DNA of 64,000 bases from the NCBI RefSeq assembly GCF_021869535.1, contig NW_026262695.1, positions 1,054,001-1,118,000 on the forward strand. The letters are read 5' to 3'. The position numbers are program-made. Shown here in pieces: positions 8,226 to 38,300 of the stretch (positions are counted from its first letter, which is position 1; each line of letters begins with the position of its first letter). Origin of the DNA: Mytilus californianus. Lineage: Eukaryota.

Positions 8226-11200
8226 AGAAGATGTGATATGATTGCCAATGAGACAACTCTTTAAAATAGAAAAAATGCACAGGAATTGACAATTATAGTT
8301 CACCGTACGGCCTTCAACAATGAGTAAAACCCATATCGCATAGTCAGCTATAAAAGGCCCTTGAAATAACAAATGTAAAACAATCCAAACGAGAAAAGTA
8401 ATGGGCTGATGTTGATTTCACCAGTAATAAAAACTAACTTAACCAGTATTTTGCTTAAGTAATATAAAGAAAAAAATACTTCAAGAAACGGATATATTTT
8501 TCAGCTTCAAGTAAATGGAAATGCTATCATTATACATTCGCAAACAAATTTGCAATGATAAAATTTGGAGAAAAATCGATATGTGAAAAACATGGTCGGA
8601 GGTTCACAGAAGGCATAAATAAAAACTATCCAGGTTGTGGAACTTGCTGGTGCTGTCAGAAGCCAAAAGGTAAAACATTGTTAAAACAATAAAGACAAAT
8701 TTTAAATCATTTGGGATATTTTACCTATATAATTTCGTCAAAGGTAACTTGTGGTATTTTATTAACATCCGTTGGCCTCAGGACAATTATTAGACATAAG
8801 AAGATGTGGTAATAGTGCCAATGAGACAACTCTCCATCTAAGTCAAAATTTATAAAAGTAAACCATTATAGGTCACAGTACGGTCTTCAACACGGAGCCT
8901 TGGCTCACACCGAACAGTAAGATATAAAGGGCCCCAAAAAATTACTAGTGTAAAACCATTCAAACGGGAAAACCAACGGTCTAATCTATATTAAAAACGA
9001 CAAACGAGAAACACTTATGAACCACATCAGCAAACGACAACTACTGAACATCAGATTCCTTATGTTCATTTATGGTAGGTGATCTGTTATATTACCTTTC
9101 AGTTTTGTAAGAATCCTACTGAGCACCGCCGTCTTTGCTTATTTTATTATTCAAACGGTATCGTATGTTTTTTTCTTTTGAAATTGCATATATAAGCCAA
9201 CATTAAGAGCTGTCATAAGTCTTGGTCTAATTCCGGCTACAATGATTTTATATCATTCTAAGCTATAATTAAAATATATACTATAAAAATCCACTAATTC
9301 CAGACAAAAAACTGACAGCACAATGGCAGAAATCAGAATAACGACAAAAAAAAACAAAAAAACATAGGACAGTTTTGAAAAAAAAAGATTTTGTTTCCAT
9401 TCAGGTGGATTTAATATCGAATCAAATCTGGTTATGGATGTGAAATCTTCAATATGTACAAGTACCGATGTTTTATTCAGGACTAGTTTTACTACAGGTT
9501 AAAATAGGCCATAACCTCGATCTAGACGAGATAATTTGACAATATCATCGCTTCAAACGAAAGTTCACAAAACACTATACAGAAAACTAAAATAAAAGTT
9601 GAGAAACGCGAAACTCACCAAAACACACAGTGGTCTCTGGTGCTCCGGAAATGTTAGCAGATCATGTTCTACCATTGACACACGTCGTGTTACGCCTACA
9701 AATTACATTGATATGTTATAGTGATAAGGGATCACGCAATAACGGACTGGTAATTGACTCTTAACTAAGGTTTTCTCAAGCTTTTAGGCTCGATAGATGC
9801 ACATGTTTTGACAGTATTTCCAAAAATATTTTAGAGTTTACAGTATACACTGATGAAAGTATACCAGTTCTACTTATGGCTGTTGGAAAAGTTCGATATA
9901 AAACAAAATTGTGACCTTTTTCAGTTTTTTGATAAGTTGAAATTCAACGTCATAATTTTGTAAAAGTGGTTCTTTTAGCAACTAGACTTAGATTAGCCAA
10001 GAAACACCTACAAATCGACTAATATCAACAGTTACCGCTAGTATCTCAAAATTTAAACACTTAATACTAAATGGGAGTTGAATTCGTGTTGTCTAGCTTA
10101 AAGATTTTTTTGTAGCTTTTTTAATGAAATTTGTCATGCCATTTTGTATGTAAATTTTCTAAGCTGTCAAAAGAAAATCCAAACGCCAAATAGGTATAAA
10201 TATAAACTACTCTCAGATTATGGCATCAATGTAGATAATCCTAAAAGATTTAGTATCAAGTTTAAAATAATGGCTAGCAATGATGCCCATTTGGCTTTGA
10301 TATCTTTCAATAATGAGAACAAGCCTTTGTATGAGTTAGTATTATGTGGTTGGACTAACTATCTCCTTCAAAACCAATATGACACTTTCAGGGGGGGTCC
10401 GGATTGGGTTAACAGAGTGGAGAATAGTGTGAAAAATGTGCGGAATAAATGGCAAAATACATAAACAATACAGACAAATAGGGCAAACAAAAAAAGAATA
10501 GGAAATAATGGTGTGCTAAAATATAAAGAATAGAGAATAATGGGCAGAAAATTAAAAAAAATACAGACAAACCTAAAAAATTAAAGAAAACAGAAATGAC
10601 GGACCCCCATCTAAACCCTCATTTAGTTGTTACGATATACAGAAGCTTGGTTTTCCTATTATGCTTTCTTCGATAAAGGTTTGATGTGTAATCTTTAATT
10701 TTCTTTGTAGAGGTTTGAAGACTTGAATGTCTTTTGTATTGGAGGGGAGCATGCTGTTTTCTGTTTTGTTTCTATTAGTGCGATTTGGCCGTCTTCTATG
10801 CCTCTTTTTTTCTACTGACGTAAATTACATTTATATCTTAATAAAAGAGGGACGAAATATACAAGAGGGACAGTCAAATTGATTGGATGTAAAATTAGTG
10901 AGGAATTGTTTAAGGATATGTGGTTTTGCTGTAAAACATCTCTGCGTCCTTTTTTAAACATTTAACTATGAAAATTTCTTTTTTCTTCCACATTATTATT
11001 TCTTTTTGGCGTCTATTATGAATAATTAAAAACTATTTTTTACTCCCTACTATATTTATAATTAAGTAAGCAGTGCATGACATCGCTTAATAAAACTCTT
11101 GACTCTATTTATTTATTTATTTACACTTATCCTTTATGATATAGCCTCCAATATTATCAGAGCCATAAACTTTAGATTACACATAGTCAGGGATCATTTT

Positions 11201-35300: not shown

Positions 35301-38300
35301 CATAGTTTGTTTTTATAGTGATTAAGATTATATATTCTGTATCCATATTTTTTACTTTTTTACCTATTATGTCTGTTTGTTTTGCTCACACATTGCTGTC
35401 AATATAATGGAATTCAAAGCGACTGTCATACAATGGAGAGGTTTAGCTAGCTATAAAACCATTTTCTACCTAAGGAAATGCCTGTACCAAGTCATGAATA
35501 TGTTTTCCATTCGTTAGATGTGATTGAGCTTTTGATTTTTATTAAGGACTTTCCGTTTTGAATTTCCCTTGTACTCCGGTATTTTTGTTATTTTACTTTT
35601 GACCTAGCAATACATAGTTACATGAAACTAATTGCATTGTAAAACATTACTATATCAATCAAATACAGAAAAAAATAACCGCTTTATATATTTTCTTTTT
35701 ATAATTAGAGTTTTTTTTTTCTTCTTTGCAGATTTCATATCGTTATGAGGACTGAAAAGAATTCGAGGCATAGTGCATTCTCAATAAGTGTGTGCTAAGC
35801 TTTAACTATATCATCATATCATAAAATAAAATTGCAGATATTATTTTTCTATATTCATTCATCTAGAATTATAACAAAATAGTTCGAAAGATTTAAGCAT
35901 ACGAATTGTAATGATAGATTATGCATCTAGCTTTTAGACATGGATACAACAATAGATTGAATTTTTAGTATTTAGAAATAAAGTAATGTGGTATGATTGC
36001 CGATGAGAAAACTATCCACCATATGCCAAATTACATGAATACAAGGAACTATAGGACACCGTAAAGTCGTCAACAATGAACAAGATAAATACCGTATAGT
36101 TAGCTATAAAAAGCTCCGACATGACAACAAGTAAAACATTTCAAACGAGATATCCAACGTTCTGAATTACGACAAAACAATACACGAATAACAAATATGA
36201 CTAACAGCAACATATGGCAATGACTGTTTTAACTAAAGAATGTGACGGGATTAAACATGTTTGGAAGCGCTCAACCTTCCCCTAACCTTGGACAGTGGTG
36301 TTGGAACAACACATTATTAGAACAAACTGTAAAAGTCAGTTTTGAAATTACTTGACTCATCCGATTTGCACGAAATTCGAAGGAATTACTTGTTACATTA
36401 ACACAAAAGACACAAAGTACCGAGGTGCGTGTATGTATCGTGTGTTTGTGACATATACAAGAACAAGTCAAAGTTTTCAGACTTAACGCAGTAACATTCG
36501 AAAGGGACACAATAGTTCCTAGTTATTCCGTGTTAATTCGTTTTTTTATACGCCCGTTTACGAGATGTATTATGGTATACCGTTGTCCGTCTGTTCGACC
36601 GTCGTACCGTCTGTCCCTCCGTCTGTCCGTCCGTCTGTCCGTCCGTCGTCAACATGTTGGACAATAACTCAAAAACACTTTAACCAATTTGCATGAAATT
36701 TTGGTGAATTGTTTATATCTATTTAAGTAAGCTTTCTTTAAATTTTTATAAATTTTGGATTTTACTTTTCCGAGTTGTTGGGTTTTATTCATCAAAAAGG
36801 GGGATTTTTTAGTTTTCGGACAATAACTCATAAGCTTTAAGCAGTTTTCATGAAACTTTGGTGAATTGTTTATATCTATTGACGTAAGCTCCCTTTTGAT
36901 TTTTATTAATTTTAGATTTTACGTTTCCGAGATATGCAATTTTATTCATAAAAAGGGGGGATTTTCCAGTTTTCGGACAATAACTCAAAAGTGCTTTGAG
37001 CAGTTTTCATGAAACTTTGATGACTGGTTTATATCTATTAAAATTACCGCCCTTTAGTTTTTTTGTTTTTTTTTTTATAAATTTCTGATATGCCATTGAG
37101 GAGTTATAGAACTTTATTCTTTGAAAAAGTGACGAGCGTATCATGCTGTCATGGCGCAGCTCTTGATTTTCTTCTGTTTTACAAATATGCTTTACCCCTG
37201 TGAGTTTGACATGGGTAATGAATGGACTTTTTGATGTTATAATTAATACAGTAAAGTTTTGTTAAACATTGCATATGCTTATAATAGCTTCTGCTAAAGA
37301 CATAGTTTAACCCCGCCACATTCTGTATGTGCCTGTGACAAGTCAGGAGTCTGTTATTCAGTGGTTGTAGATTGTTGCTGTATATCATATTTGATTTTCC
37401 TTCATTGTTTTTCACATAAATTTATCAGGCCGTTATTTTTTTTGTTTGAAATGTTAAAAAAATACATTTTGTCATTTCAGGGCCGTGTATAGCTGACTAT
37501 GCGTTATGTGTTTTCCTCATTGTTGAAAGCCGTACGGTGACGTATAGTTGTTAACTGCTATGTCACTTGATCTCTTGTGGAGAGTTTTCTCATTGGCAAT
37601 CATACCACATCCTCTTATTCTTATATGGTGTACTCACGATTATGTTGTGTTTCGCATTGATCATGTTGATTATGCAAAATAGTAACCTTGGTTTAAGACA
37701 AACTGTTTTCCCCCGAATATTATGAAGAAAATAAAAAAGGGGGCATGATTGTTATTGACATGACTAATCTCAATGACGTAGATGTAAGCAGCTATTCTTC
37801 CCTGTACGGCCTTCAATCATATTGAAATCCCATATAAATCAATTTTTAATTTATGGGAGGTGCTATGTCTTCAGATGAGTCTATTACTTCGAATATATAT
37901 TCTTTGAATTATAACATGAAAATAAAGTAAAAAATTAAATTCTGACAAAAAATCAGATTACGCATTCTATATTTGTAGATATGAAAATAATACTATCTGT
38001 CTCCATGTAATGTAAAGGAATAAATCATTGTCTAGAAATTTCAGACACAAACAAAAATCACTATAAAATAATAGTTGTAATAAAGAAAATAGCTCTCTTA
38101 CTACGTGTTCAACATTGGCAGAAGCAGTCTAATTCTTTCAAAATGGTGTGCATAAACCTACAACTATTAGCCTACAAGGAATGCAAATGTCGTAAGAGTA
38201 ATATACAGGGAAACAAACCTCGACAGTTCAGTTACCAACAGAGTGCCTACTAGCTAGCATACTTGAGGACTGCTGTTTACGGTACACATAATACAGATGT

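What the first reader, a model, noticed from the sequence alone, without database searches (positions are those of the whole stretch)
8505..35748. Mosaic secreted protein joining FCGBP-type VWD-C8-TIL units with a rhamnose-type lectin and a terminal kringle
Seen: 16 exons with canonical splice sites and compatible phases join into one frame (3,422 nt summed, about 1,140 aa): Cys module-EGF-VWD-C8-TIL-EGF-SUEL-EGF-VWD-C8-TIL-EGF-linker-kringle. No TM segment is seen before the stop. The two VWD cassettes share intron phases and identical C8 (296 nt) and TIL (203 nt) exon sizes, so they arose by internal duplication. Known: VWD-C8-TIL assemblies drive polymerisation in mucins, FCGBP and VWF; SUEL binds rhamnose/galactose; kringles are ligand-binding modules. 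Inference: a polymer-forming mucus, matrix or immune lectin scaffold built by phase-1 exon shuffling. I know of no named protein with this combination.
Basis: partly seen in the sequence, partly recalled or inferred. Interest (0 to 1): 0.65.

Follow-up and report, generated by a model that had tools for sequence, protein, structure and literature searches.

The report
Mollusc-type lectin–VWD mosaic secreted protein gene
This is a real multi-exon gene for a cysteine-rich secreted protein that joins a sugar-binding lectin, EGF modules, two von Willebrand D assemblies and a kringle; apart from the kringle, this domain mix is already known from the glue and mucus proteins of sea stars, sea urchins, flatworms and limpets.

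Summary
The exon chain is real. I rebuilt 16 AG/GT-bounded exons on the + strand (8505-35748) with compatible phases and sense codons at every split junction.

- **Domains:** 13 of 15 testable exon ORFs reach Pfam's curated cut-off for EGF, VWD, C8, TIL, SUEL or kringle. One EGF is sub-threshold. The 'Cys module' matches nothing.
- **Duplication:** the two VWD-C8-TIL-EGF cassettes share phases and exon sizes (C8 296 nt, TIL 203 nt). They are 40-67% identical, with saturated synonymous sites (pS 0.79, pN 0.35), so the duplication is old and constrained.
- **Not a mucin or VWF-type polymer:** there is no PTS region, cystine knot or CGLC motif.
- **Closest known class:** the SUEL/EGF/VWD-C8-TIL combination recurs in temporary-adhesive 'cohesive' proteins such as sea star Sfp1 and sea urchin alpha-tectorin-like protein. 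Shared details include a GDPH self-cleavage motif (VWD1 only) and a FAMeT-like fragment in the first intron.
- **Unusual part:** only the terminal kringle is unusual, and its link to the gene rests on splice phase alone.
- **Open points:** the 5' end and signal peptide were not found. Decayed SUEL and EGF pseudo-exons lie upstream.

Most likely function: an extracellular glycan-binding cross-linker. Interest is modest.

The parts
8505..8669 (+). E1, 'Cys module' exon (165 nt, phase 1-1, 6 Cys in 54 codons). Unverified.
   Evidence: Canonical acceptor and donor. No Pfam family, no PDB sequence match below E 0.1, and Atlas best score 0.80. AF2 pLDDT is 66.7 and 0 fold matches have E<=0.001. No paralogue in the window.
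10237..10365 (+). FAMeT-like fragment in intron 1. A 180-nt phase 1-1 exon at 10217-10396 is possible.
   Evidence: Pfam PF12248, E 1.3e-7, 31.9 bits (cut-off 24.2), profile positions 19-59 of 140. No other FAMeT piece was found: 1 of 114 ORFs and 0 of 10 nearby ORFs at E<=10.
11445..11552 (+). E2, EGF module (108 nt, phase 1-1, 6 Cys).
   Evidence: Pfam EGF_Teneurin, 25.6 bits against cut-off 24.3. 46% identical to E9.
12710..12957 (+). E3, N-terminal half of VWD1, with a GDPH motif.
   Evidence: Pfam VWD positions 1-83 of 156, E 3.4e-17. Best PDB match is FCGBP 8rde, E 6.9e-72. Three cleaved FCGBP chains (8r0t_C, 8r0t_B, 8qci_B) start at residue 1 aligned to the Pro of GDPH.
15227..15522 (+). 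E4, C-terminal half of VWD1. Carries CGNC where VWF and FCGBP have CGLCGN[YF].
   Evidence: Pfam VWD positions 85-155 of 156.
16390..16685 (+). E5, C8 domain (296 nt, 9 Cys).
   Evidence: Pfam C8, E 7.6e-12. Coordinates and phase.
17572..17774 (+). E6, TIL domain (203 nt, 9 Cys).
   Evidence: Pfam TIL, E 3.7e-12. Coordinates and phase.
18630..18822 (+). E7, short Cys segment after TIL, then an EGF_3 module.
   Evidence: Pfam EGF_3, 37.1 bits. 40% identical to E14.
19733..20026 (+). E8, SUEL (rhamnose/galactose-type) lectin domain with 8 Cys. The acceptor could also be 19754 or 19760.
   Evidence: Pfam SUEL_Lectin, E 1.4e-20. PDB matches are rhamnose-binding lectins 5h4s and CSL3 and the latrophilin lectin domain.
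20766..20876 (+). E9, EGF module (111 nt, phase 1-1, 6 Cys). The acceptor could also be 20772 or 20748.
   Evidence: Pfam EGF_3, E 0.0017, below cut-off. Paralogue of E2.
21683..21927 (+). E10, N-terminal half of VWD2. Has GDQH in place of GDPH.
   Evidence: Pfam VWD, E 5.4e-11. 48% identical to E3. Motif.
22841..23145 (+). E11, C-terminal half of VWD2. Carries CGDC and one Cys more than E4.
   Evidence: Pfam VWD, E 1e-12. 51% identical to E4. Motif.
26967..27262 (+). E12, C8 domain (296 nt).
   Evidence: Pfam C8, E 6e-12. 42% identical to E5.
28353..28555 (+). E13, TIL domain (203 nt).
   Evidence: Pfam TIL, E 2.4e-12. 67% identical to E6.
30502..30691 (+). E14, short Cys segment then an EGF_3 module.
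   Evidence: Pfam EGF_3, 37.5 bits. Coordinates and phase.
34347..34571 (+). E15, kringle (225 nt, phase 1-1, 6 Cys), followed by a GTGAGT donor.
   Evidence: Pfam Kringle, E 1.5e-22. PDB matches are plasminogen, HGF, prothrombin and ROR1. Atlas hits are kringle-only clusters at 0.93.
35732..35748 (+). E16, putative terminal exon: 5 whole codons (the last is the stop) after the split codon. Unverified.
   Evidence: It is the first acceptor with at least 80% pyrimidine tract downstream of the kringle donor. An AATAAA lies at 35825.
2100..2370 (+). Decayed SUEL pseudo-exon upstream.
   Evidence: Pfam SUEL positions 1-53 of 80. A 2-nt deletion relative to E8 shifts the frame, and the end of the domain is lost.
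6130..6240 (+). Decayed EGF pseudo-exon (a) with an in-frame stop.
   Evidence: tblastn gives 62% identity to E9, with a stop inside the module.
6809..6920 (+). Decayed EGF pseudo-exon (b) with an in-frame stop and lost Cys.
   Evidence: Translation, DNA alignment and in-window tblastn. Only sub-threshold Pfam EGF hits.

Best explanation
An intact, multi-exon invertebrate gene, bivalve-like by composition and repeats (inference only). It encodes a secreted, basic, Cys-rich mosaic protein of the known lectin-EGF-VWD/C8/TIL class.

Proposed mechanism, all steps inferred:
- The protein acts as a multivalent extracellular cross-linker ('cohesive' component) of a mucus, adhesive or clot-like secretion.
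- The SUEL domain binds galactose- or rhamnose-type glycans on other secreted glycoproteins or on microbes.
- The two D assemblies give rigid, disulfide-rich self- and hetero-association surfaces.
- VWD1 probably cleaves itself at GD|PH and stays disulfide-tethered, as in FCGBP and Sfp1. VWD2 (GDQH) stays uncleaved.
- The kringle adds one more ligand site, and it is not of the classical lysine-binding type.

Shown here: the exons, domains, duplication, constraint and motifs. Not shown: secretion, cleavage, sugar specificity, tissue and partners.
For: - Gene structure: exon chain with consistent phases and sense junction codons.
- Domains: 13 of 15 exon ORFs are above Pfam cut-offs.
- Constraint: paralogous cassettes have identical phases and sizes. 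Summed over the six exon pairs, pN is 0.35 and pS 0.79 (saturated), and all Cys are kept.
- VWD relatives: the best solved relatives of the VWD exons are FCGBP, then MUC5AC, MUC5B, VWF and MUC2.
- GDPH: cleaved FCGBP chains begin exactly at the residue aligned to the Pro of GDPH in E3. FCGBP is cleaved at its GDPH motifs and held together by disulfides, and its two C-terminal VWDs lack GDPH (PMC11796319, passages).
- SUEL: the exon aligns end to end with rhamnose-binding lectin domains and keeps CEG, YGR, GDPC and KY[LV].
- Secreted, non-mucin character: no TM-like stretch, K+R 157 against D+E 113, and no PTS region.
- Literature: the same domain set is called recurrent in temporary adhesives (PMC10057474, PMC6410801, PMC7333891, PMC9229212; passages). 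Sfp1 is autocatalytically cleaved into subunits and carries FAMeT, D-Gal lectin, EGF, vWF D, C8 and TIL (PMC9382459, section 2.4 and passages). A FAMeT-like fragment lies on the same strand in intron 1.
Against: - No signal peptide or start exon was found. The only candidates are weak: ATG 10727 with a poor donor, and ATG 12658 in frame with VWD1.
- E1 has no support from any library.
- The kringle and the 17-nt last exon are joined to the gene only by phase and splice-site quality.
- FA58C, typical of Sfp1 and of lophotrochozoan mucin-like proteins (PMC4948705), is absent.
- Only 41 of 140 FAMeT profile positions are present.
- Decayed sister exons upstream show that this locus has been losing exons.
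- Nothing in the sequence tells a cohesive or mucus role apart from an immune role.
Confidence: 0.6

Rival explanations
1. Humoral immune or clotting lectin. The protein would be a haemolymph or mucosal agglutinin working like insect hemolectin/hemocytin: a lectin domain recognises microbial sugars and VWD assemblies build the clot.
For: - SUEL-type lectins bind rhamnose and galactose, sugars common on microbes (domain match).
- Hemolectin joins VWD-C8-TIL units to a lectin-like F5_F8 domain (PMC4948705, passages).
- The kringle's best solved relatives are clotting and fibrinolysis proteins.
Against: - There is no F5_F8 domain, and there are two rather than 3+2 VWD units.
- No expression or challenge data exist.
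- The same domains are equally typical of adhesive secretions (PMC10057474).
Confidence: 0.2
2. The reader's chain merges more than one transcription unit. Either the real gene starts at ATG 12658 (a signal-like peptide read straight into VWD1), leaving E1/E2 to a decayed upstream unit, or the kringle exon belongs to a separate or alternative transcript.
For: - ATG 12658 opens an ORF with a hydrophobic stretch in frame with E3.
- Pseudo-exons of the same kinds lie upstream.
- E1 has no family.
- Without splicing after the kringle, the frame stops at 34598-34600, with AATAAA at 34680.
Against: - The acceptor at 12710 is homologous in position and phase to the internal acceptor at 21683.
- E2 is an intact six-Cys EGF under constraint (pN 0.40, pS 0.94) with in-phase sites.
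- The kringle exon is phase 1-1, matching the E14 donor, and ends in a consensus GTGAGT donor.
- No other domain-bearing ORF was found nearby on either strand that could claim it. One search screened 114 ORFs and screened 150, out to 44.8 kb on the + strand.
Confidence: 0.25
3. Gamete-recognition protein working like zonadhesin or egg SUEL: a sperm or egg-coat adhesion molecule built from VWD assemblies and a lectin.
For: VWD-C8-TIL plus EGF resembles zonadhesin. Limpet VWD proteins hit zonadhesin by BLAST (PMC7333891, table 2). That SUEL was first described from sea urchin eggs is recalled, not checked here.
Against: No MAM domain, mucin region or TM segment was found. There are no expression data.
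Confidence: 0.07
4. Unexpressed or decaying gene copy (pseudogene).
For: No start exon was found. Sister exons upstream are frameshifted or carry stops. The FAMeT domain survives only as a fragment.
Against: All 14 domain exons are open, with every expected Cys and canonical splice sites. pN is far below the saturated pS between the cassettes.
Confidence: 0.07

Closest known systems
Sea star footprint proteins Sfp1 and Sfp2, and sea urchin 'alpha-tectorin-like' adhesive protein (temporary-adhesion cohesive proteins)
   Same: Galactose/SUEL-type lectin, EGF, vWD-C8-TIL, high Cys content and a GDPH-type autocatalytic site. Sfp1 also has FAMeT, matching the FAMeT-like fragment here. Sources: PMC9382459 section 2.4, PMC10057474 and PMC6410801 passages.
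   Different: This protein is much shorter (about 1,130 against 3,853 aa), with one SUEL and two VWD. It has no FA58C, only a FAMeT fragment, and a C-terminal kringle that those papers do not report. Sequence orthology was not tested.
FCGBP (IgGFc-binding protein)
   Same: It is the best solved relative of both VWD halves (8rde, E 6.9e-72 and 2.9e-45). The GDPH motif is in register with FCGBP's cleaved chain starts. The last VWD lacks GDPH, as in FCGBP (PMC11796319).
   Different: Two D assemblies rather than 7-13. No FCGBP_N-type domain was found in the window. SUEL, EGF and kringle modules are absent from FCGBP. CGLC is replaced by IGLC or TGIC plus a CGNC or CGDC motif.
Flatworm adhesion protein 1 (Mlig-ap1, Tmed-ap1) and limpet P-vulgata_1
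   Same: A lectin + EGF + vWD-C8-TIL secreted protein with a proposed cohesive role. P-vulgata_1 is a mollusc protein with two vWFD (PMC9229212, PMC6410801, PMC7333891 table 2).
   Different: Those carry a C-type lectin, not SUEL. They also have long EGF arrays, K/R-rich regions, Kazal domains or a cystine knot. None has a kringle on the same chain.
Insect hemolectin/hemocytin and lophotrochozoan mucin-like proteins
   Same: VWD-C8-TIL units combined with a carbohydrate-binding module in a secreted protein (PMC4948705).
   Different: Those have a 3+2 VWD layout with F5_F8 (discoidin) domains. Here there are two VWD and a SUEL domain.
Gel-forming mucins and VWF
   Same: The same D-assembly building block.
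   Different: No PTS region, no CTCK or VWC, no VWA, no D1-D2-D3 array, and no CGLC motif.

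Membership tests
Sfp1-like cohesive proteins of temporary adhesives | vWD-C8-TIL assemblies together with a galactose/SUEL lectin and EGF modules on one chain | tested here: met
   Exon-by-exon Pfam. One reading frame by phase arithmetic. The joined chain itself was not searched.
Sfp1-like cohesive proteins of temporary adhesives | Autocatalytic GDPH site in a vWD | tested here: met
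   GDPH is in E3 and GDQH in E10, in register with the starts of cleaved FCGBP chains. Cleavage itself cannot be tested here.
Sfp1-like cohesive proteins of temporary adhesives | FAMeT domain (Sfp1, 3, 4a, 5) | tested here: inconclusive
   Only a fragment, profile positions 19-59 of 140, sits in intron 1. No further piece was found.
Sfp1-like cohesive proteins of temporary adhesives | FA58C/discoidin domain | tested here: not met
   No F5_F8 match in the exon ORFs or in the 264 further ORFs screened.
Sfp1-like cohesive proteins of temporary adhesives | Secretion by adhesive glands and presence in footprints or mucus | not testable with these tools
   Needs in situ hybridisation and proteomics.
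Sfp1-like cohesive proteins of temporary adhesives | Sequence orthology to Sfp1, Sfp2 or alpha-tectorin-like protein | not tested
FCGBP | N-terminal FCGBP_N domain plus many (7-13) VWD-C8-TIL units (PMC4948705, PMC11796319) | tested here: not met
   There are two units only. In-window tblastn found no further VWD, C8 or TIL copies. No N-domain family appeared in the ORF screens. Sequence upstream of the window is unseen.
Gel-forming mucins | PTS (Pro/Thr/Ser-rich) region, at least 3 VWD, C-terminal cystine knot | tested here: not met
   S+T+P is 11-25% per exon and 19% overall. There are two VWD, and no CTCK or VWC match.
VWF-type disulfide multimerisers | CGLC vicinal-cysteine motif at the end of VWD (role in multimerisation recalled) | tested here: not met
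   Alignments to FCGBP and VWF put Ile (E4) at the first Cys of CGLC. By the E4/E11 alignment, E11 reads TGIC with Thr there. A new Cys sits at the [YF] position, giving CGNC and CGDC.
Rhamnose-binding (SUEL-type) lectin domain | About 95 residues, 8 Cys, YGR / DPC / KYL motifs (motif names recalled) | tested here: met
   8 Cys. ATYGR, GDPC and KYV are present, and the domain aligns end to end with three domains of 5h4s. Sugar binding is not testable here.
Kringle | Six-Cys triple-loop module | tested here: met
   Pfam 80.1 bits against cut-off 34.3. Aligns with all five plasminogen kringles.
Lysine-binding kringles (plasminogen K1/K4 type) | Acidic pair in the NPDxD stretch (Asp55/Asp57; residue roles recalled) | tested here: not met
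   The stretch reads NPNNS where plasminogen K1 has NPDND (alignment).
Hemolectin/hemocytin | 3+2 VWD-C8-TIL units around F5_F8 domains (PMC4948705) | tested here: not met
   Two units and no F5_F8 match.
Alpha-tectorin / zonadhesin | NIDO + ZP domains (tectorin); MAM + TM (zonadhesin) (PMC4948705) | tested here: not met
   None of these families appeared in any ORF scanned. No TM-like stretch.

The most novel reading that the evidence does not exclude
The locus may be a lophotrochozoan counterpart of the echinoderm Sfp1-type cohesive protein. On this reading, the FAMeT + galactose-lectin + EGF + VWD/C8/TIL + GDPH set is an old bilaterian 'glue and mucus' cassette. The sea star authors thought FAMeT in adhesive proteins might be sea-star specific (PMC9382459). 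This lineage would be losing the FAMeT part and would have captured a kringle by phase 1-1 exon shuffling. One chain would then hold both the cohesive module and a kringle docking module. In flatworms the kringle sits on a separate membrane protein, Tmed-krg1 (PMC9229212).
Probability: 0.15. Interest if true: 0.5.

Novelty: new variant of a known kind. Interest (0 to 1): 0.3.

Why it matters
If transcripts confirm the chain, it adds a compact (about 1,130 aa) mollusc member to the lectin-EGF-VWD proteins that recur in marine temporary adhesives and mucus. Three features could make it a useful study object:

- **Built-in cleavage control.** A GDPH VWD sits next to a GDQH VWD in the same chain, which suits tests of VWD self-cleavage.
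- **Altered cysteine layout.** CGNC and CGDC replace the usual CGLC.
- **Added kringle.** No protein with this combination was found in the literature searches.

It also gives a clean example of phase 1-1 module shuffling and of exon decay beside a conserved gene. It does not open a long-standing question. Mosaic extracellular proteins of this kind are common in molluscs.

Tried and rejected
- **Whole-frame Pfam scan.** I screened stop-free ORFs instead.
- **+ strand ORF screen.** 114 ORFs of at least 25 aa were taken from 6900-8504, 8670-11444, 30692-34346 and 34572-36500. They gave only the FAMeT fragment and one chance-level hit (PDR_CDR, E 0.0082).
- **Second ORF screen.** 158 ORFs of at least 48 aa qualified (minus strand 1-47,000; + strand 36,500-47,000). 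I scanned 150. The 8 dropped for the size limit were 7 + strand ORFs beyond 44,690 and the minus ORF at 45873-46091. The result was three single chance-level hits (CID, EPV_E5, CxC4; E 0.0045-0.0094).
- **E1 'Cys module'.** Every approach came back blank or weak:
  - Pfam found no family.
  - The best PDB sequence match had E 0.1.
  - The Atlas best score was 0.80.
  - The single-sequence AF2 model had pLDDT 66.7.
  - Foldseek against the PDB gave 0 of 478 matches at E<=0.001.
- **Kringle in the Atlas.** Only kringle-only clusters came up, so it says nothing about the architecture.
- **Signal-peptide scan of 1-12,700.** No convincing first exon was found. I rejected ATG 10727 (poor donor, gtcttc). 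I kept ATG 12658 only as a rival.
- **A separate 'linker' exon.** I looked between E14 and E15 and found none.
I could not reproduce it with any in-phase acceptor choice.
- **dN/dS ratio.** It is not computable for 4 of 6 exon pairs or for the sum, because synonymous sites are saturated.
- **Literature.** Three searches for VWD, SUEL and kringle on one protein found none.
- **Not attempted.**
  - No protein-complex prediction was run, because no binding claim is made.
  - The genome-contig collection holds bacteria and archaea only and was not used.

Full report
**Setting.** The window is 64 kb at about 31% G+C, with one N run at 40424-40659, which I left alone. I do not take it for human. The composition, the dispersed repeats and the domain mosaics point to an invertebrate, probably a bivalve mollusc. 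That is inference only, because no eukaryotic nucleotide or protein collection was open to me. The joined chain was never translated as a whole, searched or folded.

**Observation.** Stop-to-stop ORFs on the + strand between 8.4 and 35.8 kb hold a series of Cys-rich pieces. Using AG/GT sites and the paralogy between the two cassettes, I rebuilt 16 exons. Coordinates are in the parts list. Outgoing intron phases are 1,1,0,2,1,0,1,1,1,0,2,1,0,1,1, so the frame is continuous, and all 11 split codons are sense codons.

Alternative in-phase acceptors for the SUEL and third EGF exons do not close the 27-nt gap.
- I found no separate 'linker' exon.
That exon sits behind the first strong acceptor downstream of the kringle's consensus GTGAGT donor, and an AATAAA lies 77 nt further on.

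**Domains.** Of the 15 testable exon ORFs, 13 reach Pfam's curated cut-off:
- EGF (E2)
- VWD N- and C-halves (E3/E4 and E10/E11)
- C8 (E5, E12)
- TIL (E6, E13)
- EGF_3 (E7, E14)
- SUEL lectin (E8, 73.8 bits)
- Kringle (E15, 80.1 bits)

E9 is a six-Cys EGF below cut-off (E 0.0017) and is 46% identical to E2. E1, the 'Cys module', matched nothing in Pfam, the PDB sequences, the ESM Atlas, or a Foldseek search with a mediocre model (pLDDT 66.7). It remains an unverified exon. No exon has a TM-like stretch; the highest 19-residue hydropathy is 1.19.

**Duplication.** The cassettes E2-E7 and E9-E14 share all phases. Exon sizes are 108/111, 248/245, 296/305, 296/296, 203/203 and 193/190 nt. Amino-acid identity is 40-67%. 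Summed over the six exon pairs, pS is 0.79 (saturated) and pN is 0.35, and blastn finds no similarity between the cassettes. The duplication is therefore old and both copies have stayed under constraint. Junctions inside a cassette are not.

**Surroundings.**
- **Paralogues in the window.** In-window tblastn found no further VWD, C8, TIL or kringle copies.
- **Upstream relics.** Three decayed sister exons lie upstream on the same strand. A SUEL copy at about 2100-2370 has a 2-nt deletion that shifts the frame and has lost its end. Two EGF copies at about 6130-6240 and 6809-6920 carry in-frame stops.
- **FAMeT fragment.** Between E1 and E2 lies a FAMeT-like fragment (PF12248, E 1.3e-7, profile positions 19-59 of 140). 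A 180-nt phase 1-1 exon at 10217-10396 could carry it in frame. No other FAMeT piece was found: 1 of 114 ORFs, and 0 of 10.
- **5' end.** No start exon with a convincing signal peptide was found. An ATG at 12658 opens a hydrophobic stretch read straight into VWD1. However, the acceptor at 12710 is homologous to the internal acceptor at 21683, so I keep this only as a rival.
- **Other genes.** Nothing on the minus strand, or on the + strand out to 44.8 kb, looks like another gene that could own the kringle (150 of 158 ORFs scanned). Introns and flanks are full of dispersed repeats, and retroelement ORFs lie downstream.

**What the parts say about mechanism.**
- **VWD exons.** Both VWD1 exons (E3, E4) hit FCGBP best (8rde, E 6.9e-72 and 2.9e-45), then MUC5AC, MUC5B, VWF and MUC2.
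- **GDPH.** E3 carries GDPH, and three cleaved FCGBP chains in the PDB begin at residue 1 aligned to its Pro. FCGBP is fully cleaved at its GDPH motifs, stays linked by disulfides, and lacks GDPH in its two C-terminal VWDs (PMC11796319, passages). Here VWD1 has GDPH and VWD2 has GDQH.
- **CGLC.** At the CGLCGN[YF]NG stretch of FCGBP and VWF, E4 reads IGLCGNCNG. The paralogous E11 reads TGICGDCNG. The CGLC pair is gone and a CGNC or CGDC pair appears.
- **Odd cysteine.** VWD2 has one Cys more than VWD1, which may be unpaired. This is inference.
- **SUEL.** The exon has 8 Cys and keeps YGR, GDPC and KYV, aligning with rhamnose-binding lectins and the latrophilin lectin domain.
- **Kringle.** It aligns with all five plasminogen kringles but reads NPNNS where K1 has NPDND. 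The acidic pair of lysine-binding kringles (roles recalled) is therefore missing.
- **Composition.** The protein is basic (K+R 157, D+E 113), 8.7% Cys and 19% S+T+P, with one N-glycosylation sequon. It is not a mucin.

**Comparison with what is known.** Vertebrate FCGBP carries an FCGBP_N domain and many VWD-C8-TIL units. Gel-forming mucins have PTS regions and at least 3 VWD. Insect hemolectin has a 3+2 VWD layout around F5_F8 domains, and F5_F8 also marks lophotrochozoan mucin-like proteins (PMC4948705, passages). None of these definitions is met here.

The set SUEL or galactose lectin + EGF + vWD-C8-TIL is explicitly called recurrent in temporary adhesives:
- Sea urchin alpha-tectorin-like protein has 5 SUEL, 4 EGF and 3 vWD (PMC10057474, passages and table 2).
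- Sea star Sfp1 has vWD, galactose-binding lectin, C8 and EGF domains, and 5% Cys (PMC6410801).
- Sfp1 is autocatalytically cleaved into four subunits, and Sfp2 has one such site. Sfp1, 3, 4a and 5 carry FAMeT domains, which the authors thought might be specific to sea stars (PMC9382459, section 2.4 read in full plus passages).
- Flatworm ap1 has a C-type lectin, EGF, vWD, C8 and TIL (PMC9229212).
- In molluscs, FAMeT domains are otherwise reported from shell-matrix or shell-repair genes (PMC8194122, passages).
- In these papers kringles occur only on other proteins: flatworm Tmed-krg1 and limpet P-vulgata_14.

Three full-text searches found no protein with VWD, SUEL and kringle together. I did not see the original Sfp1 paper; it is cited through the papers above.

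**Verdict.** It is a secreted lectin-VWD scaffold built by phase-1 shuffling and internal duplication. It lacks what mucins and VWF use to polymerise, and its core combination is already named in the adhesion literature. I file it as a new variant (kringle-tailed, two D assemblies, one SUEL) of the lectin-EGF-VWD class. My confidence levels:
- About 0.9 that exons E2-E14 form one real gene.
- About 0.65 that the kringle belongs to it.
- About 0.6 for the cross-linker mechanism as a whole.

**Unchecked.**
- Any transcript or expression evidence.
- The papers' supplementary files, which were closed.

Noticed in passing
window 2100-2370, 6130-6240, 6809-6920 (+): Decayed sister exons lie upstream of the gene. 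One SUEL copy has a 2-nt frameshifting deletion and a lost end, and two EGF copies carry in-frame stops. They are relics of a lost unit or an older, longer gene.
   Followed up: yes
window 10237-10365 (+); possible exon 10217-10396: An isolated FAMeT-like fragment (Pfam PF12248, profile positions 19-59 of 140) sits in the first intron of the model. FAMeT domains accompany lectin and VWD domains in sea star Sfp1 (PMC9382459).
   Followed up: partly
window 12658-12709 (+): An ATG opens a hydrophobic, signal-peptide-like stretch in the same ORF as VWD1, just upstream of the inferred acceptor at 12710. It is either a chance product of the pyrimidine tract or an alternative start.
   Followed up: partly
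window 15398-15409 and 23012-23023 (+): Both VWD domains have CGNC or CGDC where FCGBP and VWF have CGN[YF]. They lack the first Cys of CGLC, so the cysteine is shifted. VWD2 also has one extra Cys near its start in E11.
   Followed up: partly
window 47066-49388 (+) and 41403-41828 (+): Retroelement ORFs: a weak RVT_1 match at 48421-49071, and a related C-terminal fragment at 41.4 kb.
   Followed up: partly
window 56499-59985 (+): A run of long, A-rich ORFs (AT skew about 0.2) has only weak DUF7869 and OTU hits. It is probably a large transposon-type element.
   Followed up: no
window 2463-2696, 49420-49743, 51355-51702, 62662-62950, 63691-63924 (+), and others: A dispersed repeat family carries a Cys- and Phe-rich pseudo-ORF, with copies 75-95% identical. 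Another family occurs at 12327-12589, 28023-28324 and 54287-54590. Introns of the gene hold several such copies.
   Followed up: partly
window 25086-25560 and 45244-45470: Tandem repeats with periods of about 118 bp (in intron 11) and about 45 bp, seen as staggered self-matches.
   Followed up: no
window 8211-8401 and 8798-9048: E1 is flanked on both sides by copies of one repeat that also occurs at about 38.77-39.03 kb. This adds to the doubt about E1.
   Followed up: no
window 44527-44757 (+): An ORF that looked faintly like a C-type lectin by eye has no Pfam match.
   Followed up: partly
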